This document shows positions 58,965 to 64,000 of a DNA stretch of 64,000 nucleotides, piece after piece (positions within the stretch are counted from its first letter, which is position 1; each line of letters begins with the position of its first letter). A program made the translations under genes and the position numbers. Where the stretch lies: NCBI RefSeq assembly GCF_048403405.1, contig NZ_CP183129.1; one strand, written 5' to 3'. Source of the stretch: Escherichia coli (GTDB lineage Bacteria; Pseudomonadota; Gammaproteobacteria; Enterobacterales; Enterobacteriaceae). The notes under the pieces are model-generated. The model was not told where the DNA came from. It searched no databases and was given only the letters and a program-made list of their open reading frames with translations.

Positions 58965-59372
58965 GTGTCGAATCCTTATCCAAAACAAGAGGTAACTCTC
59001 ATGCTTCATACTGCCAATCCCGTCATCAAACACAAAGCCGGTTTGCTCAATCTGGCTGAAGAACTCAGCAACGTATCAAAAGCCTGTAAAATCATGGGCG
59101 TTTCGCGTGAAACGTTTTATCGTTACCGCGAACTGGCCGCTGAAGGCGGTGTGGATGCGCAGATTAATCGTAGTCGCCGCGCTCCTAACCTTAAGAACCG
59201 TACCGATGAGGCAACTGAACAGGCTGTTGTTGATTACACCGTCGCTTTCCCGACACATGGTCAGCACCGGGCCAGCAACGAGCTGCGTAAACAGGGGGTT
59301 TTTATCTCCGACAGTGGTGTCCGTTCTGTCTGGTTACTCCATAACCTTGAGAATCTCAAAAGACGATACTGA
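58965..59372 (+). pseudogene. Transposase N-terminal HTH fragment (ybbD-like remnant)
   Basis: 135-aa ORF containing ...KIMGVSRETFYRYRELAAEGG..., typical transposase HTH; no catalytic domain follows. Confidence 0.5.
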
Positions 59373-59886
59373 ACAAATTTTATCAGGTGACGTTCCGTAA
59401 AAAGTTGTATGGAGTTCTCGATGCAGTCGGCGCGACTATCAGTACCCCCGCTGAACCCTGGACTATCGGGCCGCCGTACTGGGGCATGTCACCCTGGCGT
59501 GCCGCTGGTTTTCCGCTAATGGTTTATTTCCTCTTTCTTTCCCGGCGAGAATTTATTTTAATCCGGAAGGATTATTTATTTTCAGATAGGGACTCACATT
59601 AAACACGAAACATTTTAATTAATGCATGGCTGAATATGTATTACACAATGTCAGATATCGTAAAAGACCAGTGCAATTCTATGTAAACTCTCTGACTGTT
59701 CATTTTATTTGTTGTTTCAGGGTCGGAACTCACCCTCAATAAACAACTGAATACGAGTAGATATTCATCGTCTGAGCTATATGGCTTTACACAATAGCCG
59801 ACATGTCTTTTCTCAGTCAGGGATTTTACTTTTCCTCACTACGAAGTTGACGACTTCGATATGGGATAGACTCTTAATTCAAGCAA

Positions 59887-60378
59887 TTACTCTGCACAAG
59901 CATCAGGCAATCCAGCTCCAATATTTGTTATAAAATAATGCGCAACATTAATTTCACCAACAAAAAAAAGGTTTACGCTATCCCCTTGCCCTGGTATTTT
60001 ACCATATTTACACCACACTTCTTTTGTATCTGGATCATTCTCTGATACGATTTTCGCCACTTGTTCCCTGGCCCTCACCGTCAATGTTTTCTTAAACCTC
60101 CCCCCATCATCGATTGTTAGGGAAAAATAAGAAAAAAAATAATCATCTTCTACATTTGTGGATATTGATATATCCACCGCTACATGCGGAAAAAAATCTG
60201 GGAGCCATGTAAAAACCCCATCACTTTCTGGTATTGCCATATAGTTTATGTAATGCTTACTTACAAGAGATTCATCTTTGTGTAAATAAAGATAAGTAGT
60301 CACGCATAAAAAAACAACGATTATAATAGCAAAAATAAATATTACCATCTTTGAGATGTTACTTGAGATAGCCAGCAT
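59887..60378 (-). CDS. Small membrane protein immediately downstream of Rhs toxin tip; candidate cognate immunity protein
   Basis: 163-aa ORF (alternative start MVIFIF...) with N-terminal TM helix; AT-rich; overlaps rhs stop; does not match my recollection of K-12 YbbC. Confidence 0.5.
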
Positions 60379-63300
60379 CTTGTAAAGCCTTTATCGTTTT
60401 TTTATGCTCTGGATTAATATAATTAATACATCTATTTGAGCAATCTTGTGTTAATGGACATGTCAACCCATGTTCATTTACAGCCAAGTCTTTTTTATTA
60501 TCTTCAATCATCTCAGAATGGGATAACTTTACTTTTCTGCCGTACATACCGAACATATTTAACCCGTAATCTCTAATCTCTTTTTCATAACCCAGCCCTT
60601 TCGCTGATCGGCTAACACCAGCGTCATTTAATTTAGACACTCGACAAAATGCCATACAATGGAAAAATTGATCAGTCCCACCTAAATTTAATCTCTTCAT
60701 ATCATCATAAGTATCAGATAATATATCCCATGCTCTTTGATGGTTTAGTTGTTCTTTTTTTCGCATTAACGCTACATCTGCAGGACTTAACCCTAATGGA
60801 TCAATACCATTCACCGGATTCAGCGGATACGCATACAGACTCCATCCCCCCGCCAGCCCAATCGGGTCCTGAGTAATATATCGTCCCAGCAACGGATTGT
60901 AGTACCGGTTCCGGTTATAATACAGCCCTGACTCCTCATCGTGTTGCTGCCCTGGCAGACGGTACGGCTGGTGCAGGTGATGCGGGTTTTCCTCATTCAG
61001 CAGGTTTCCCCACTCATCATACTCCCCGCTCCACGCCGTATTGCCGTCTTCGCTGATGAGCGCCAGCGGCAGCCCCCGGTGGTCACAGTGATAAAGATGA
61101 ATTTTTCGCTCAGGTAAATAAACCGGCTCTATCTGTGTCGCCAGCCGCTCCACCGTCAGCCCGCACTGTGCCAGCCACTGGCGGCTTTCACTGCTCACGC
61201 GGTCTGCCCGGATTTCCCCCTCCAGCCTGTCCAGCAGCCGCACCAGTTCAGCCGGGAACACCACGCCGTGTCCGTCCTCGCTCCCTTCCTGCTGGAGCTT
61301 CTCCGCCAGGCTCCGCCGCTGCGTTTTCTCCCGCTCGCCGTTGTCTGTTTCGATGCGGATGAGCGGTGTGAAGCTTCCCGGCTCGTATACCGTCTGGATA
61401 CGTGTGCTGTCGGTCTGCACCGTCGTCAGGTGGTCGCCGTCCCAGCCGTACCACGTCACCTCCGGTTTACGCGACAGCGACATCCACCCCGTCAGGTCAC
61501 GCTCCCGCCGCCATACCCGTTTCGCCATTCGCCGTCCCAGCGGGTCGTAGAGGTAGCGGCTCTCGACCAGTGGCTCGCCATGCTGTATCCGCGTGTAGAA
61601 CTCCAGGCGGTGCTGGCTGTCGTAGTGGTAGTGGTGGGTCCGCTCGTCGTCCGTCCGTATCACACCCGCCGGGATGCGGTCCGTCTTCTCCGTCAGCCTG
61701 CCGTATTCATCGTGGCGGTAGACATAGTGCGCATCCTCCGCGATGCGGTTATCCGGCCACGCCGTGAGTGTACTGTCCGGGTGCAGCTCCGGGTCCTGCA
61801 GCCGGTTGCCCGCCGGGTCCGTGGCATACGGGATGCGGATGTCCAGGTCCGGTGCGAGGGTGCGTACACTCGCCAGCCTGCCCGTGGCACTGTAGCCGTA
61901 TTCCCGCGTCTGTCGCGGGCCGCTGATGCGCACAAGGTCGCCGTTGTCATTCCACCCGTAGTCACGGTCATACACCAGGCTGTTCAGGTGCTGGCTCTGT
62001 AACTGGCCTGCAGGGGTGTATGTGCTGGTCAGTTCGTATGCGGCATTACTGCCTGCCATGCTGCCAAAGCTGCGCACCGTTTCTCTGTGCAGGCGGTCGC
62101 GCGCGTACTCCAGCAGCGGCGTGTCGCCCAGCTTCATGCCCGCCAGATAACCGCTACCGTAGGTCAGCCACTCCACCGGCGGCAGGCTGTCCGGCGTGAC
62201 GCGGTTTGCCAGCCCCTGTTCGTTGTATGCCTGTTTCGTCTCATGCTGCCACAGCAGTTCCCCCGTCTCCGGGTTCTCCACCGTCTGGCGCTCCCCGGTC
62301 AGACGGCCCTTATCGTCATAGCCATAGTGGACGGCAACACGGTGGCCTTCGCTCAGGTGGCTGATTTCTCTCAGCCAGCCGTGGCCATCATACCGCCACT
62401 GTTCTGCCGGTTCGCCGTTCACCGTGCGGTGAGTGATACGGTCCGATTCGTCGTAGTGCCAGAGGGTGACAAGCCCCTCATCTTCACTCTGCGTGAGTTT
62501 TCCGGTCAGGTCATAGTGGTAACGTTGCGTCCGCCCGTCAAAGCCGCGCTGCTGTACCAGCCGGTCCAGCGCATCGTAGCTGAAGTCGCTGTGACTGCCG
62601 TTCTCGTTGGTCAGGCTGATGACACGTCCTGCCGCGTCATACTCCATACTGCGCGTCAGCCCGCCCTGTGTGGTGCTGACCGCCTTTCCCCACGCATCGT
62701 ACTGTGTCTCGCTCCGGTTGCCGTCCGGGGTGATAACGGCAGTCAGGTCGCCTGCGGCGTTGTATTCATACCGCGTTTCACGGCCCTGTGCGTCTTTCAC
62801 CGAGGTTAACCGGCCACGGTTGTCATAGCGGCGGTAACGGCTGATACCTTCCTCGCGGTGAACCGCCGTCATCTGGCCGAAGCGGTCGTATTCATAACGG
62901 GTCTGGTAGCCCGAGCAGTCAGTGAACGCCAGCAACTGCCCGTAGCGGCTCCACGTCATCTGCCGGGTGCTGCCCGTCGCATCCGTTGTCGTCGCCGGTA
63001 ACTCACTGTGCGCGTCATCGTAGCGGTAGCGTACTGTCTCCCCGCTGCGCGATGTCTCCGATACCAGCCTGTCCCGCTCATCATACGCCCGGCGGCTCTC
63101 CAGCCCGTCCGGGTACACCACCGCCGTCAGCCGGTTCCCGTCGTTATAGTAAAATTTCGTCTCCCGCCCGTCCGGCGTGGTGATGTCCGTGATGTCGCCT
63201 GACACCACATTCAGACCGTACTCTGTCCGCCGTCCCGCCGCGTCCGTCTGCGCCGTGAGCCTTCCTGCCGCGTCATACCCGCTGTGCGTGACGCTGCCGT

Positions 63301-64000
63301 CCGCCAGTTCTTTTTTCACCACCCGCTTCAGCCCGGCCCCGCCTTCTGTATGCAGCACCTCTCGCCGGTTCAGGCTGTCGGTGACGGTGATGCGGTCCTG
63401 CTCATACTGGTAGCGGTAACTCAGGCCTGCCGGGTTCAGCTGCTCCACCACCCGCCCCGCATCGTCGTAGCGGTAGCGCATCTCCGGCCTTCCCGCATAA
63501 CGGTGCCCCACCATCCGGCCCGGGTGCTGCGGGTCATACGTGAAAGCGCGCACCTGTGTCCCGCTGCGGTCATATACCGCCAGCAGTTCACCGGCTTCCG
63601 TATACGTGTACCGCACCAGTGGCGCACCGGGCAGATTCTCCGGGTATGCCGGGTCGTGCATCAGCCACACCGCCGAAAGGCGGATACCCCTGTCGGGGCC
63701 GTATTCCGTACCGGGCAGTGTGTCGGGGAACGCTGAGGCTGAGAGAGGGCGGGAACGGTCAGAAGAAGATAGCGAAGAGGTGCGGGCCTCTTCCGCACGC
63801 TGCGCCTGTGTGGTCAGCACCAGACGGAACTCCCGCCCGGCACCGTCCGTCACGCCGGTGATTTCCCCGGCCAGGTCACCGGCGGCCTCACGCCGGTACG
63901 TCAGCGTCTGCCCGAAGCGGTCCGCCAGCCCGGTAAGCACCCGGTACGGCGGCAGCGGCGCTGGCAGTACGTCCTCAGTGCCCGGCACCCGCTCTGACCA
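60359..64000 (-). CDS. Rhs family protein (RhsD locus position), partial, with variable C-terminal toxin domain
   Basis: YD-repeat-rich ORF running off the window; core ends ...DPIGLAGG...[11 protein letters not shown], followed by ~140-aa low-GC C-terminal extension. Confidence 0.85.

What the first reader, a model, noticed from the sequence alone, without database searches (positions are those of the whole stretch)
59887..60830. Rhs C-terminal toxin tip with adjacent membrane-protein gene differing from the K-12 module
The Rhs core ends at the conserved DPxGL-type motif (...[11 protein letters not shown]). It is followed by an extension of about 140 aa ([46 protein letters not shown]...HSEMIEDN...) that I cannot assign to a known toxin family. 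Composition drops sharply to AT-rich at about 60900. A 163-aa ORF with an N-terminal transmembrane helix overlaps the rhs stop, in the position of a cognate immunity gene. Neither the tip nor this downstream protein matches my recollection of K-12 RhsD-CT/YbbC, consistent with tip replacement.
Basis: partly seen in the sequence, partly recalled or inferred. Interest (0 to 1): 0.45.

Follow-up and report, generated by a model that had tools for sequence, protein, structure and literature searches.

The report
Serum-amyloid-A-like Rhs toxin tip with immunity gene
This is a common, already catalogued E. coli Rhs toxin tip that resembles serum amyloid A, followed by its membrane-anchored immunity gene; K-12 carries the same pair as a decayed "orphan" copy, so it is ordinary but biochemically untested.

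Summary
On the minus strand an Rhs gene runs off the window at 64000 and reaches the cleavage motif [10 protein letters not shown] (60788-60817). A 142-aa AT-rich tip follows (60362-60787, 35% GC against 64% in the core). A 163-aa ORF (59887-60378) with one N-terminal membrane helix overlaps the rhs stop by 20 nt.

The tip can be assigned to a family. It is a bacterial serum-amyloid-A-like ("prok-SAA", Lipocone superfamily) toxin domain:
- A family profile hits SAA structures at E=3.6e-21.
- The AlphaFold model (pLDDT 94.7) has SAA1/SAA3 as its seven best Foldseek matches in the PDB.
- His43, Glu70, Asp96 and Asp100 are conserved.

The 163-aa protein is YbbD (NCBIfam NF011298, Pfam YbbD_head). 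YbbD-like genes follow SAA-like Rhs tips in six independent contexts.

However, it is K-12's orphan rhsH(ylbH)/ybbD module (96.8% nt over the aligned block), here fused to the full-length core with ybbD intact. About 964 of 5426 complete E. coli genomes share this arrangement.

The SAA resemblance of the RhsD tip in EHEC (enterohaemorrhagic E. coli) was published in 2020, and the toxin family in 2025. The mechanism is inferred, not shown: most likely an attack on the cell envelope from the periplasm.

The parts
60803..64000 (-). 3' part of the full-length rhs gene (RhsD-locus core: YD-repeat shell plus RHS core domain). About 191 N-terminal codons lie beyond the window edge.
   Evidence: The ORF is uninterrupted to the edge. 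It is 94.2% identical in nucleotides to the K-12 rhsD core. The 1400-aa ortholog in ST2747 (99.7% identical to the window in nucleotides over 10.6 kb) has RHS_repeat in 13 stretches (E=1.2e-79), RHS core (E=6e-17) and DUF6531 (E=9.5e-18).
60788..60817 (-). [10 protein letters not shown], the PxxxxDPxGL motif that ends the conserved core. In other Rhs proteins this is the autoproteolytic release site.
   Evidence: Sequence and coordinates. Similarity to the K-12 main core ends at 60816. The cleavage function is inferred from established knowledge of Rhs proteins.
60362..60787 (-). 142-aa toxin tip: a bacterial serum-amyloid-A-like (prok-SAA, Lipocone) domain. Stop codon at 60359-60361. Conserved polar residues: D39 (60671-73), H43 (60659-61), E70 (60578-80), D73 (60569-71), D96 (60500-02), D100 (60488-90), N104 (60476-78), G107 (60467-69). 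Cysteines at 44, 48, 110, 116 and 120.
   Evidence: Pfam SAA, single sequence, E=1.6e-4. A 47-sequence family profile hits SAA PDB chains at E=3.6e-21. 40 of 47 members hit PF00277. AF2 pLDDT 94.7, six helices. The top 7 Foldseek PDB hits are all SAA1/SAA3, TM 0.70-0.75. Residue conservation.
59887..60378 (-). 163-aa YbbD-family protein, the presumed immunity protein. One N-terminal transmembrane helix (residues 8-26), then an alpha/beta domain predicted to face the periplasm. Conserved W58, F63, P64, C123, C161.
   Evidence: NF011298 E=2.5e-111. Homologs carry the precomputed Pfam family PF26610 YbbD_head. Alignment A4. AF2 pLDDT 70.5. YbbD-like genes lie directly after SAA-like Rhs tips in the window, L004-6, L007, L008, L010 and L021.
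60359..60378 (-). 20-nt overlap between the end of rhs (…DAGYLK*) and the start of the immunity gene (MLAISS…). An AAGG sequence lies 9 nt upstream of the ATG.
   Evidence: Sequence read directly. Translational coupling is an inference.
60816..61036 (-). 221-bp 3' core segment that is present twice in K-12: at the end of the main rhsD core and at the head of the orphan rhsH. It is the homology that links the one-tip and two-tip arrangements.
   Evidence: This stretch aligns to both L001 7416-7636 and L001 8612-8832. The window copy is 91% identical to the orphan copy and 84.6% to the main copy, with a mosaic of informative sites.
59373..59886 (.). Spacer of 41% GC between the immunity gene and the IS remnant. 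In the nearest genome RefSeq marks a pseudogene fragment at a position equivalent to about 59425-59520.
   Evidence: Nothing functional was shown here.
58965..59372 (+). ylbG': an N-terminal fragment (helix-turn-helix) of an IS481-family transposase. It marks the outer edge of the rhs element, next to mnmH.
   Evidence: Pfam HTH_29 E=4.6e-19. NCBIfam transpos_IS481 E=8.4e-25, covering positions 2-112 of 284. Annotated as ylbG pseudogene.

Best explanation
The region is an intact toxin-immunity module at the 3' end of the RhsD-locus Rhs protein of E. coli.

**Shown**
- The tip is a member of the bacterial serum-amyloid-A-like (prok-SAA) family of the Lipocone superfamily.
- The next gene is the YbbD-family single-pass membrane protein, which recurs after such tips.
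- The pair is the same module that K-12 keeps as a decayed orphan (rhsH/ylbH plus a frameshifted ybbD). Here it is joined directly to the full-length core.

**Inferred mechanism**
1. The Rhs shell encloses the tip, and the tip is released by autoproteolysis at DPLGL.
2. The N-terminal 'PAARQGD' stretch and DUF6531 head mount the protein on a type VI secretion spike, which delivers it into a neighbouring cell.
3. The tip acts in the periplasm at the outer face of the inner membrane. Two things suggest this. Four near-invariant cysteines suggest disulfides. The immunity proteins are always membrane-anchored or lipoproteins.
4. Most likely the tip uses the conserved His43/Glu70/Asp96/Asp100 pocket to cut or exchange phosphate-linked head groups of lipids such as lipid II or other undecaprenyl-linked carriers. 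The related toxin TelC does this. The result would be a collapse of cell-wall synthesis.
5. YbbD would bind and block the tip in sibling cells.

**Confidence by step**: module identity and family about 0.9; immunity role about 0.75; periplasmic site about 0.7; lipid head-group enzymology about 0.4.
For: **Family of the tip**
- Pfam SAA, single sequence, E=1.6e-4.
- Exhaustive profile search: 130 representative clusters at E<=1e-3, many at the C-termini of proteins of 570-1935 aa.
- Family profile against the PDB: only SAA chains are significant, best E=3.6e-21.
- 40 of 47 family members hit PF00277, best E=1.4e-25.
- AF2 model pLDDT 94.7. Its seven best Foldseek PDB hits are SAA1/SAA3, probability 1.0.
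- Conservation: D39, H43, E70 and D100 in 47/47; D96 and G107 in 46/47; N104 in 45/47.
- This matches the His(H2)/Glu(H3)/Asp(H4) site and the NxxG motif that PMC12419801 describes for Lipocones.
- That paper's prok-SAA dataset contains the Kluyvera sequence identical to my P0018, which is 54% identical to this tip.

**Periplasmic action**
- C44, C48, C116 and C120 are conserved in 43-45 of 47 sequences.
- YbbD has a transmembrane anchor, and C123 and C161 are conserved.
- Relatives have lysine-rich N-termini before the helix. One tip (L009) is followed by a lipoprotein with a lipobox.
- PMC12419801 reports that all Lipocone-toxin immunity proteins are membrane proteins or lipoproteins, and that TelC is toxic only outside the cytoplasm.

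**Pairing of tip and YbbD**
- Tip followed by a YbbD-like gene in six non-redundant contexts, down to about 35% toxin identity.

**Relation to K-12**.
Against: - No experiment exists on this tip, on YbbD or on any prok-SAA toxin.
- The single-sequence Pfam score (22.5 bits) is below the gathering threshold (30.8).
- The arginine of the published sNxxGR motif is leucine here (VNEHGL). Only 17 of 47 family members have R at that position.
- YbbD matches none of the immunity folds listed for prok-SAA toxins in PMC12419801. The 4-Cys domain described there has four conserved cysteines, whereas YbbD has two.
- YbbD-like genes also occur without an adjacent SAA-like tip (L015-20).
- The authors of the BteO study assign it a non-enzymatic, OmpA-binding mechanism.
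- Whether this strain has a type VI secretion system is unknown. The Rhs N-terminus is outside the window, and no Pfam PAAR hit was found in the ortholog.
- In K-12 the equivalent AT-rich DNA is bound by H-NS/StpA (PMC9948719), so expression may be low.
Confidence: 0.7

Rival explanations
1. The tip is a non-enzymatic envelope toxin. [quoted passage not shown] The conserved His/Glu/Asp groove is then a binding surface, and YbbD competes for it.
For: - The BteO authors show OmpA-C binding and find no peptidoglycan hydrolase or amidase activity. Groove mutants lose both OmpA binding and toxicity.
- Human SAA is reported to bind E. coli OmpA, as cited in PMC12419801.
Against: - BteO was not assayed on lipid-linked substrates.
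- Its essential residues coincide in spacing with the predicted Lipocone catalytic residues. This is my inference from residue numbers.
- D39, H43, E70 and D100 are invariant across 47 very divergent sequences (29% mean column identity). That pattern is more typical of catalysis than of a binding surface facing a variable target.
Confidence: 0.2
2. The tip is a host-directed mimic of serum amyloid A, delivered to modulate inflammation or chemotaxis. This was suggested for the RhsD protein of EHEC (enterohaemorrhagic E. coli).
For: PMC7216683 modelled the EDL933 RhsD (z0651) C-terminus on human SAA1 (TM 0.623) and proposed a role in the immune response.
Against: - The tip is followed by an overlapping, co-conserved membrane protein in the immunity position. 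The pairing recurs in metagenomic and other enterobacterial relatives.
- The module also occurs as orphan copies in rhs arrays, and in laboratory K-12.
- The family's invariant residues are those of the predicted enzyme site, not SAA's receptor-binding features.
Confidence: 0.04
3. The module is a silent relic in this strain. The toxin is not expressed or not deliverable, because of H-NS silencing or the lack of a matching type VI system. Only the immunity gene matters, protecting against neighbours that do fire this toxin.
For: - The equivalent K-12 region is bound by H-NS/StpA and is free of transposon insertions (PMC5821084).
- The module is 35% GC.
- YbbD-like genes persist alone in immunity arrays (L015-20).
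- The promoter-like site count is at chance level.
Against: - Both reading frames are intact here, unlike in K-12.
- The tip is fused to a complete 1400-aa Rhs in the nearest genome.
- This fused form is kept in about 964 complete genomes.
- This rival concerns expression, not what the genes encode.
Confidence: 0.1

Closest known systems
E. coli K-12 orphan module rhsH (ylbH) - ybbD, downstream of rhsD-ybbC
   Same: Same locus (between ybbP and mnmH/allS), same tip and same downstream gene. The aligned block is 96.8% identical in nucleotides, and the K-12-type tip (P0003) is 92-93% identical in protein.
   Different: In K-12 the tip is a 687-bp fragment with no start and no delivery domain, and ybbD is split by a T8->T7 frameshift. 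Here the tip is in frame with the full core and ybbD is intact.
RhsD of EHEC O157:H7 EDL933 (z0651), reported as SAA1-like in PMC7216683
   Same: The same fused arrangement (core directly joined to this tip) is found in O157:H7 genomes, at 91% nucleotide identity across the junction. The paper reports the SAA1-like model and PF00277 hits in 7 PAAR-Rhs proteins of O157:H7.
   Different: It is a different allele. The paper read the domain as host-directed and did not discuss the downstream gene as an immunity gene.
prok-SAA family, SAA-Wnt clade of the Lipocone superfamily (Burroughs, Nicastro, Aravind 2025, PMC12419801)
   Same: Helical SAA-like fold, His/Glu/Asp polar site, NxxG motif, low hydrophobicity, use as an RHS/T6SS toxin tip, and membrane-anchored immunity. 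Close relatives with the FCRVSK signature are in their dataset.
   Different: The R of sNxxGR is L here. The immunity protein (YbbD_head, two conserved Cys) does not fit the immunity types described for prok-SAA, namely the 4-Cys 'Imm-SAA' and the lipoprotein BamE-like type.
TelC-TipC of Streptococcus intermedius (lipid II phosphatase toxin; Whitney et al. 2017, as summarised in PMC12419801)
   Same: Placed in the same superfamily by PMC12419801. Toxic only outside the cytoplasm, and its immunity protein acts outside the cytoplasm. It is the template for the proposed chemistry.
BteO-BtiO of Bacteroides fragilis (PDB 9UU0; PMC12541434)
   Different: No detectable sequence similarity. BteO has its own N-terminal TM helix and is not an Rhs tip. 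Its immunity protein is an OmpA-C mimic with a signal peptide. Its authors assign it a non-enzymatic OmpA-binding mechanism.
K-12 RhsD-CT / YbbC
   Same: Same locus and same kind of element: an Rhs tip plus a small downstream gene.
   Different: Unrelated tip sequence (…DPMGLLQTWDDARSG…) and an unrelated 122-aa YbbC/YhhH-family protein.

Membership tests
Rhs polymorphic toxin (C-terminal tip + immunity module) | YD/RHS repeats and RHS core domain upstream of the tip | tested here: met
   In the 1400-aa ST2747 ortholog: PF05593 in 13 stretches (E=1.2e-79) and PF03527 (E=6e-17). The locus is 99.7% identical to the window in nucleotides over 10.6 kb. The same repeats are visible in the window ORF.
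Rhs polymorphic toxin (C-terminal tip + immunity module) | PxxxxDPxGL motif marking the core/tip boundary, with abrupt loss of similarity and a change in composition after it | tested here: met
   [10 protein letters not shown] at 60788-60817. Alignment to the K-12 main core stops at 60816. GC drops from 0.64 to 0.35.
Rhs polymorphic toxin (C-terminal tip + immunity module) | Small gene immediately downstream that protects against the tip | not testable with these tools
   Position, a 20-nt overlap and recurrent pairing in six contexts support this role. Protection itself needs an experiment.
Rhs polymorphic toxin (C-terminal tip + immunity module) | N-terminal PAAR-type domain or linkage to a type VI secretion system | tested here: inconclusive
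   The N-terminus is outside the window. The ST2747 ortholog starts MSGKPAARQGD… and has DUF6531 (E=9.5e-18), but no Pfam PAAR hit at E<=0.01. No T6SS genes were examined.
prok-SAA (Lipocone superfamily, SAA-Wnt clade) | Sequence homology to serum amyloid A (PF00277) | tested here: met
   Alone, the tip scores 22.5 bits (E=1.6e-4), below the Pfam cutoff of 30.8. The family profile hits SAA chains at E=3.6e-21. 40 of 47 relatives hit PF00277, best E=1.4e-25.
prok-SAA (Lipocone superfamily, SAA-Wnt clade) | SAA-type helical bundle (four core helices plus a fifth) | tested here: met
   [not shown]
prok-SAA (Lipocone superfamily, SAA-Wnt clade) | Conserved polar site: His on H2, Glu on H3, Asp on H4 | tested here: met
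   H43, E70 and D100 are invariant in 47/47, D96 in 46/47 and D73 in 44/47. The assignment of residues to helices comes from the model.
prok-SAA (Lipocone superfamily, SAA-Wnt clade) | sNxxGR motif in H4 | tested here: inconclusive
   The sequence here is VNEHGL: N104 and G107 are present, but R is replaced by L. In the 47-sequence alignment that position is R in 17 and L in 11.
prok-SAA (Lipocone superfamily, SAA-Wnt clade) | Soluble domain of low hydrophobicity | tested here: met
   The most hydrophobic 19-mer of the tip has a mean Kyte-Doolittle score of 0.55.
prok-SAA (Lipocone superfamily, SAA-Wnt clade) | Cleavage or exchange of phosphate-linked lipid head groups | not testable with these tools
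   This activity is only predicted for the family. No prok-SAA member has been assayed.
YbbD family (NCBIfam NF011298 / Pfam PF26610 YbbD_head) | Full-length match above the curated cutoff | tested here: met
   NF011298 scores 369.4 bits against a cutoff of 326, covering 1-163 of 163. PF26610 is not in the local Pfam copy, but it is precomputed for homologs at 71-98% identity and named.
Imm-SAA (4-Cys alpha + 4-beta immunity domain of PMC12419801) | Four absolutely conserved cysteines stabilising a small alpha+beta domain | tested here: not met
   Only C123 and C161 are conserved in the 29-sequence YbbD alignment. The predicted domain is larger, with about eight strands and three or four helices.
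BamE-like lipoprotein immunity (PMC12419801) | Two-helix hairpin followed by three beta-strands; lipoprotein | tested here: not met
   [not shown]
K-12 RhsD-CT / YbbC module | Sequence identity of the tip and the downstream protein | tested here: not met
   The tip and the downstream protein are unrelated to RhsD-CT and YbbC. The window lacks the 1196 bp that carry them in K-12.

The most novel reading that the evidence does not exclude
The tip is a catalytically active SAA-fold enzyme that cuts phosphate-linked lipid carriers (lipid II or other undecaprenyl-linked intermediates) in the E. coli periplasm. YbbD represents an immunity fold not yet described for this toxin family.

If so, this E. 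coli pair would be the most tractable system for finding the long-unknown biochemical activity of the serum amyloid A fold. K-12 is naturally ybbD-defective, which helps.

It would also prompt a re-examination of the 'non-enzymatic' B. fragilis effector BteO. Its essential R143-H144, H167-E168 and D187 have the same spacing as the RH…HE…D motif of Min-Wnt Lipocones.
Probability: 0.3. Interest if true: 0.6.

Novelty: already known. Interest (0 to 1): 0.25.

Why it matters
As a genome feature it is ordinary. About half of complete E. coli genomes carry this tip and ybbD, about 18% in exactly this fused form. The SAA resemblance and the toxin family are both published.

Its value is practical:
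- It shows that K-12's cryptic rhsH/ybbD pseudogene pair is the remains of a working toxin-immunity module that is intact in other strains, including EHEC.
- It provides an easily manipulated bacterial member of the serum amyloid A fold, with clear predictions to test: periplasmic toxicity, His43/Glu70/Asp96/Asp100 mutants, YbbD protection, and lipid II versus OmpA as the target.
- A positive result would bear on what the SAA fold does chemically, which is still unsettled for the human acute-phase protein.

Tried and rejected
- **Weak Pfam hits.** Peptidase_C7 on the tip (E=0.03) and Ac76 on the ORF (E=0.36, transmembrane segment only) were treated as noise.
- **Word-indexed homolog searches.** With the single sequences they found only close enterobacterial relatives. 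The exhaustive profile search was needed to reach the family.
- **afdb50 library.** It was unavailable.
- **Paralog behind NCBIfam NF007301 (E=8e-16).** I looked for it but did not identify it. K-12 YdcD, next to rhsE, does not match the YbbD profile. My fetch aimed at the rhsC locus missed it.
- **P0044** had no contig on record.
- **Promoter and terminator scan of 59300-61200.** Counts were at the level of shuffled sequence, so nothing was concluded.
- **Sequence-level link from the family profile to TelC or BteO in the PDB.** None at E<=10.
- **Direction of the rearrangement.** The 221-bp repeat is mosaic. The window copy is 91% identical to the K-12 orphan copy and 84.6% to the main copy. 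This does not distinguish a gain in K-12 from a loss here.
Full report
**1. What is in the sequence**

The end of the window is the E. coli gcl-allR-allA-allS-mnmH region, followed on the minus strand by an rhs element. The nearest complete genome is strain ST2747. It is 100% identical over 59400-61100 and 99.7% identical over 10.6 kb.

The rhs reading frame is open from the window edge (…[10 protein letters not shown]…) to a stop at 60359-60361. The start listed at 63988 is an edge artefact: the ST2747 protein is 1400 aa.

The core ends with [10 protein letters not shown] (60788-60817). After it come 142 codons (60362-60787) at 35% GC, against 63.6% for the core.

A 163-codon ORF (59887-60378) begins 20 nt before the rhs stop. 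Residues 8-26 form its one strongly hydrophobic segment. Beyond it lie a 41% GC spacer and ylbG', a fragment of an IS481-family transposase.

**2. Relation to K-12**

K-12 (strain DH1, locus L001) has rhsD with a different tip, then ybbC, then a 687-bp rhs fragment with no start, then two short ORFs, then ylbG. The window aligns to K-12 in two blocks:
- 58800-61036 matches the orphan fragment and everything downstream of it at 96.8%.
- 60816-64000 matches the main rhsD core at 94.2%.

The 221 bp from 60816 to 61036 match both K-12 copies of the core end. K-12 thus carries 1196 extra bp between the core and this tip: RhsD-CT, ybbC and a repeat of the core end.

The two short K-12 ORFs are ybbD split by loss of one T from a run of eight. 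The window has the intact run and an intact 163-aa protein.

But the module is K-12's own orphan, called ylbH or rhsH, with ybbD. The 221-bp repeat in the window is closer to the orphan copy (91%) than to the main copy (84.6%) and is mosaic. This does not reveal whether K-12 gained a tip or this lineage lost one.

**3. How common it is**

Counts are out of 5426 complete E. coli genomes.

| Feature | Genomes |
|---|---|
| At least 80% of the tip-plus-ybbD stretch | 2726 |
| Junction of full core to this tip, as in the window (includes O157:H7) | 964 |
| K-12-type junction of ybbC to the orphan | 1845 |

**4. What the tip is**

- *Single sequence.* The tip gives a sub-threshold Pfam hit to serum amyloid A (E=1.6e-4, 22.5 bits against a cutoff of 30.8). 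It also gives weak phmmer hits to SAA structures.
- *Family search.* An exhaustive profile search of 1.84 billion representative proteins found 130 clusters at E<=1e-3. Many sit at the C-terminus of long proteins.
- *Conservation.* A 47-sequence alignment of the domain has only 29% mean column identity. Even so, D39, H43, E70 and D100 are invariant, and M30, C44, C48, D73, D96, N104, G107, C116 and C120 are nearly so.
- *Link to SAA.* That profile hits SAA chains in the PDB at E=3.6e-21 and nothing else significantly. 40 of the 47 sequences hit PF00277 individually.
- *Structure.* The AlphaFold model is confident (pLDDT 94.7) and has six helices. Its seven best Foldseek matches in the PDB are SAA1 and SAA3.

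This is the 'prok-SAA' family of the Lipocone superfamily, defined by Burroughs, Nicastro and Aravind (PMC12419801). They list it among the toxin tips of polymorphic toxins. They describe an ancestral His/Glu/Asp site and an sNxxGR motif. Their dataset contains sequences with the same FCRVSK signature, including one identical to my 54%-identical Kluyvera relative. The one departure here is Leu in place of the motif's Arg. That position varies in my alignment.

Independently, an in-silico study of EHEC (enterohaemorrhagic E. coli) had already modelled the RhsD C-terminus of EDL933 on human SAA1. It also noted PF00277 in seven PAAR-Rhs proteins of O157:H7, and read the domain as host-directed (PMC7216683).

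**5. What the 163-aa protein is**

It is YbbD: NCBIfam NF011298 at E=2.5e-111, and homologs carry Pfam PF26610 'YbbD_head'.

A profile search recovered a family of proteins of roughly 150-180 aa. Each has an N-terminal membrane helix, a conserved W…FP motif and two conserved cysteines.

Looking downstream of SAA-like Rhs tips of decreasing similarity, a YbbD-like gene follows directly in five further contexts besides the window:
- L004-6, about 50% toxin identity
- L007
- L008, where the gene was uncalled in the record
- L010, about 35% toxin identity
- L021 (Pseudocitrobacter), where the gene is frameshifted

In L009 the tip is followed instead by a lipoprotein with a loosely similar motif. 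In two metagenomic contexts YbbD-like genes sit alone in rhs orphan or immunity arrays, as orphan immunity genes often do.

The YbbD structure model is only moderately confident (pLDDT 70.5) and has no convincing structural relative. It does not fit the immunity types described for prok-SAA toxins, namely a four-cysteine alpha+beta domain and BamE-like lipoproteins.

**6. How it most likely works**

*Shown:* a complete Rhs with this tip, and an intact gene in the immunity position that overlaps the rhs stop.

*From established knowledge of Rhs proteins:* the shell encloses the tip, which is released by autoproteolysis at the DPxGL motif. Delivery is usually by type VI secretion. The ortholog's N-terminus (MSGKPAARQGD…, DUF6531) is consistent with that, but Pfam PAAR gave no hit, and the N-terminus is outside the window.

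*Inferred site of action:* the periplasm. The toxin family keeps four cysteines. The immunity family is membrane-anchored, or a lipoprotein, with two conserved cysteines. The published pattern for all Lipocone toxins is the same.

*Inferred chemistry:* attack on phosphate-linked lipid head groups, with lipid II or other undecaprenyl carriers as the leading candidates. This rests on analogy with TelC and on the invariant His/Glu/Asp residues.

**7. A lead from structure**

BteO is toxic only in the periplasm and causes elongation, blebbing and lysis. It binds OmpA-family C-terminal domains and is described as non-enzymatic. R143A, H144A, H167A, E168A, D187A and D191A each abolish its toxicity (PMC12541434).

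This supports periplasmic envelope toxicity for this fold, and it supplies the main rival mechanism. Human SAA is also reported to bind OmpA.

**8. Verdict**

The feature is a known, widespread module whose family assignment is already in the literature.

What I did not find stated in the papers I read:
- the explicit link between K-12's rhsH/ybbD pseudogene pair and intact prok-SAA modules in other strains;
- the recurrent pairing of YbbD_head proteins with SAA-like tips.

No biochemical function has been demonstrated for any member of the family.

Noticed in passing
L001 6488-6978 (K-12 DH1), equivalent to window 59887-60378: K-12 ybbD is split into 86-aa and 57-aa ORFs by loss of one T from a T8 run; the window has the intact run. 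A TraDIS study found the 5' part of K-12 ybbD free of insertions and suggested essentiality (PMC5821084). A later study attributed the transposon-free ybbC-rhsH-ybbD stretch to H-NS/StpA binding (PMC9948719).
   Followed up: yes
L014 10085-12587 (K-12 DH1 rhsE-ydcD locus): The K-12 RhsE C-terminal tip (…GAADAMRHCYLMCRMTK…NHEAAG…MDLKNN…) weakly hits my SAA-like profile (15 bits). Its sequence type is listed in the Min-Wnt dataset of PMC12419801. E. coli therefore carries two different Lipocone-type Rhs tips at two loci. YdcD does not match the YbbD profile.
   Followed up: partly
[not shown]
   Followed up: partly
P0004 (ENA metagenome protein, 183 aa): A predicted protein joins the first ~46 residues of AllS in frame to this tip from about residue 8 (…[20 protein letters not shown]…). 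It is either a deletion removing mnmH, ylbG, ybbD and part of the tip region in some strain, or a chimeric assembly.
   Followed up: no
L009 3039-3626: Downstream of a 35%-identical SAA-like Rhs tip there is no TM-anchored YbbD. Instead there is a putative lipoprotein (…FSFALLALSGC…) with two cysteines and a loosely YbbD-like central motif. It did not reach E<=1e-3 against the YbbD profile.
   Followed up: partly
L015-L017 3001-3513 and L018-L020 3001-3486: YbbD-like genes occur without an adjacent SAA-like tip. One case is downstream of a 1982-aa VgrG-Rhs fusion protein with another tip. The other is inside an array of rhs fragments, ankyrin and Imm15 genes. Both look like orphan immunity genes.
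   Followed up: partly
L021 2998-3508 (Pseudocitrobacter corydidari): The YbbD-like gene after an orphan SAA-like rhs fragment is split between two frames. This is a second, independent case of decay of this immunity gene, as in K-12.
   Followed up: no
window 58965-59372 (+): ylbG': only the N-terminal helix-turn-helix part of an IS481-family transposase remains, between mnmH and the rhs element. RefSeq also marks a ~96-bp pseudogene fragment at a position equivalent to about 59425-59520, and a terminator-like hairpin lies at 59483-59503.
   Followed up: partly
window 1-24400: Only window 24381-49938 is collinear with the ST2747 stretch fetched as L012, which runs from allW/allB through the argU tRNA into a lambdoid prophage. 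The first 24 kb do not match that prophage. Instead they match cus and nfr genes and glycosyltransferases in other strains, at only 73% coverage. More than half of all matching places (20,297 of 37,906) lie on plasmids, which suggests insertion sequences. I did not examine this further.
   Followed up: no
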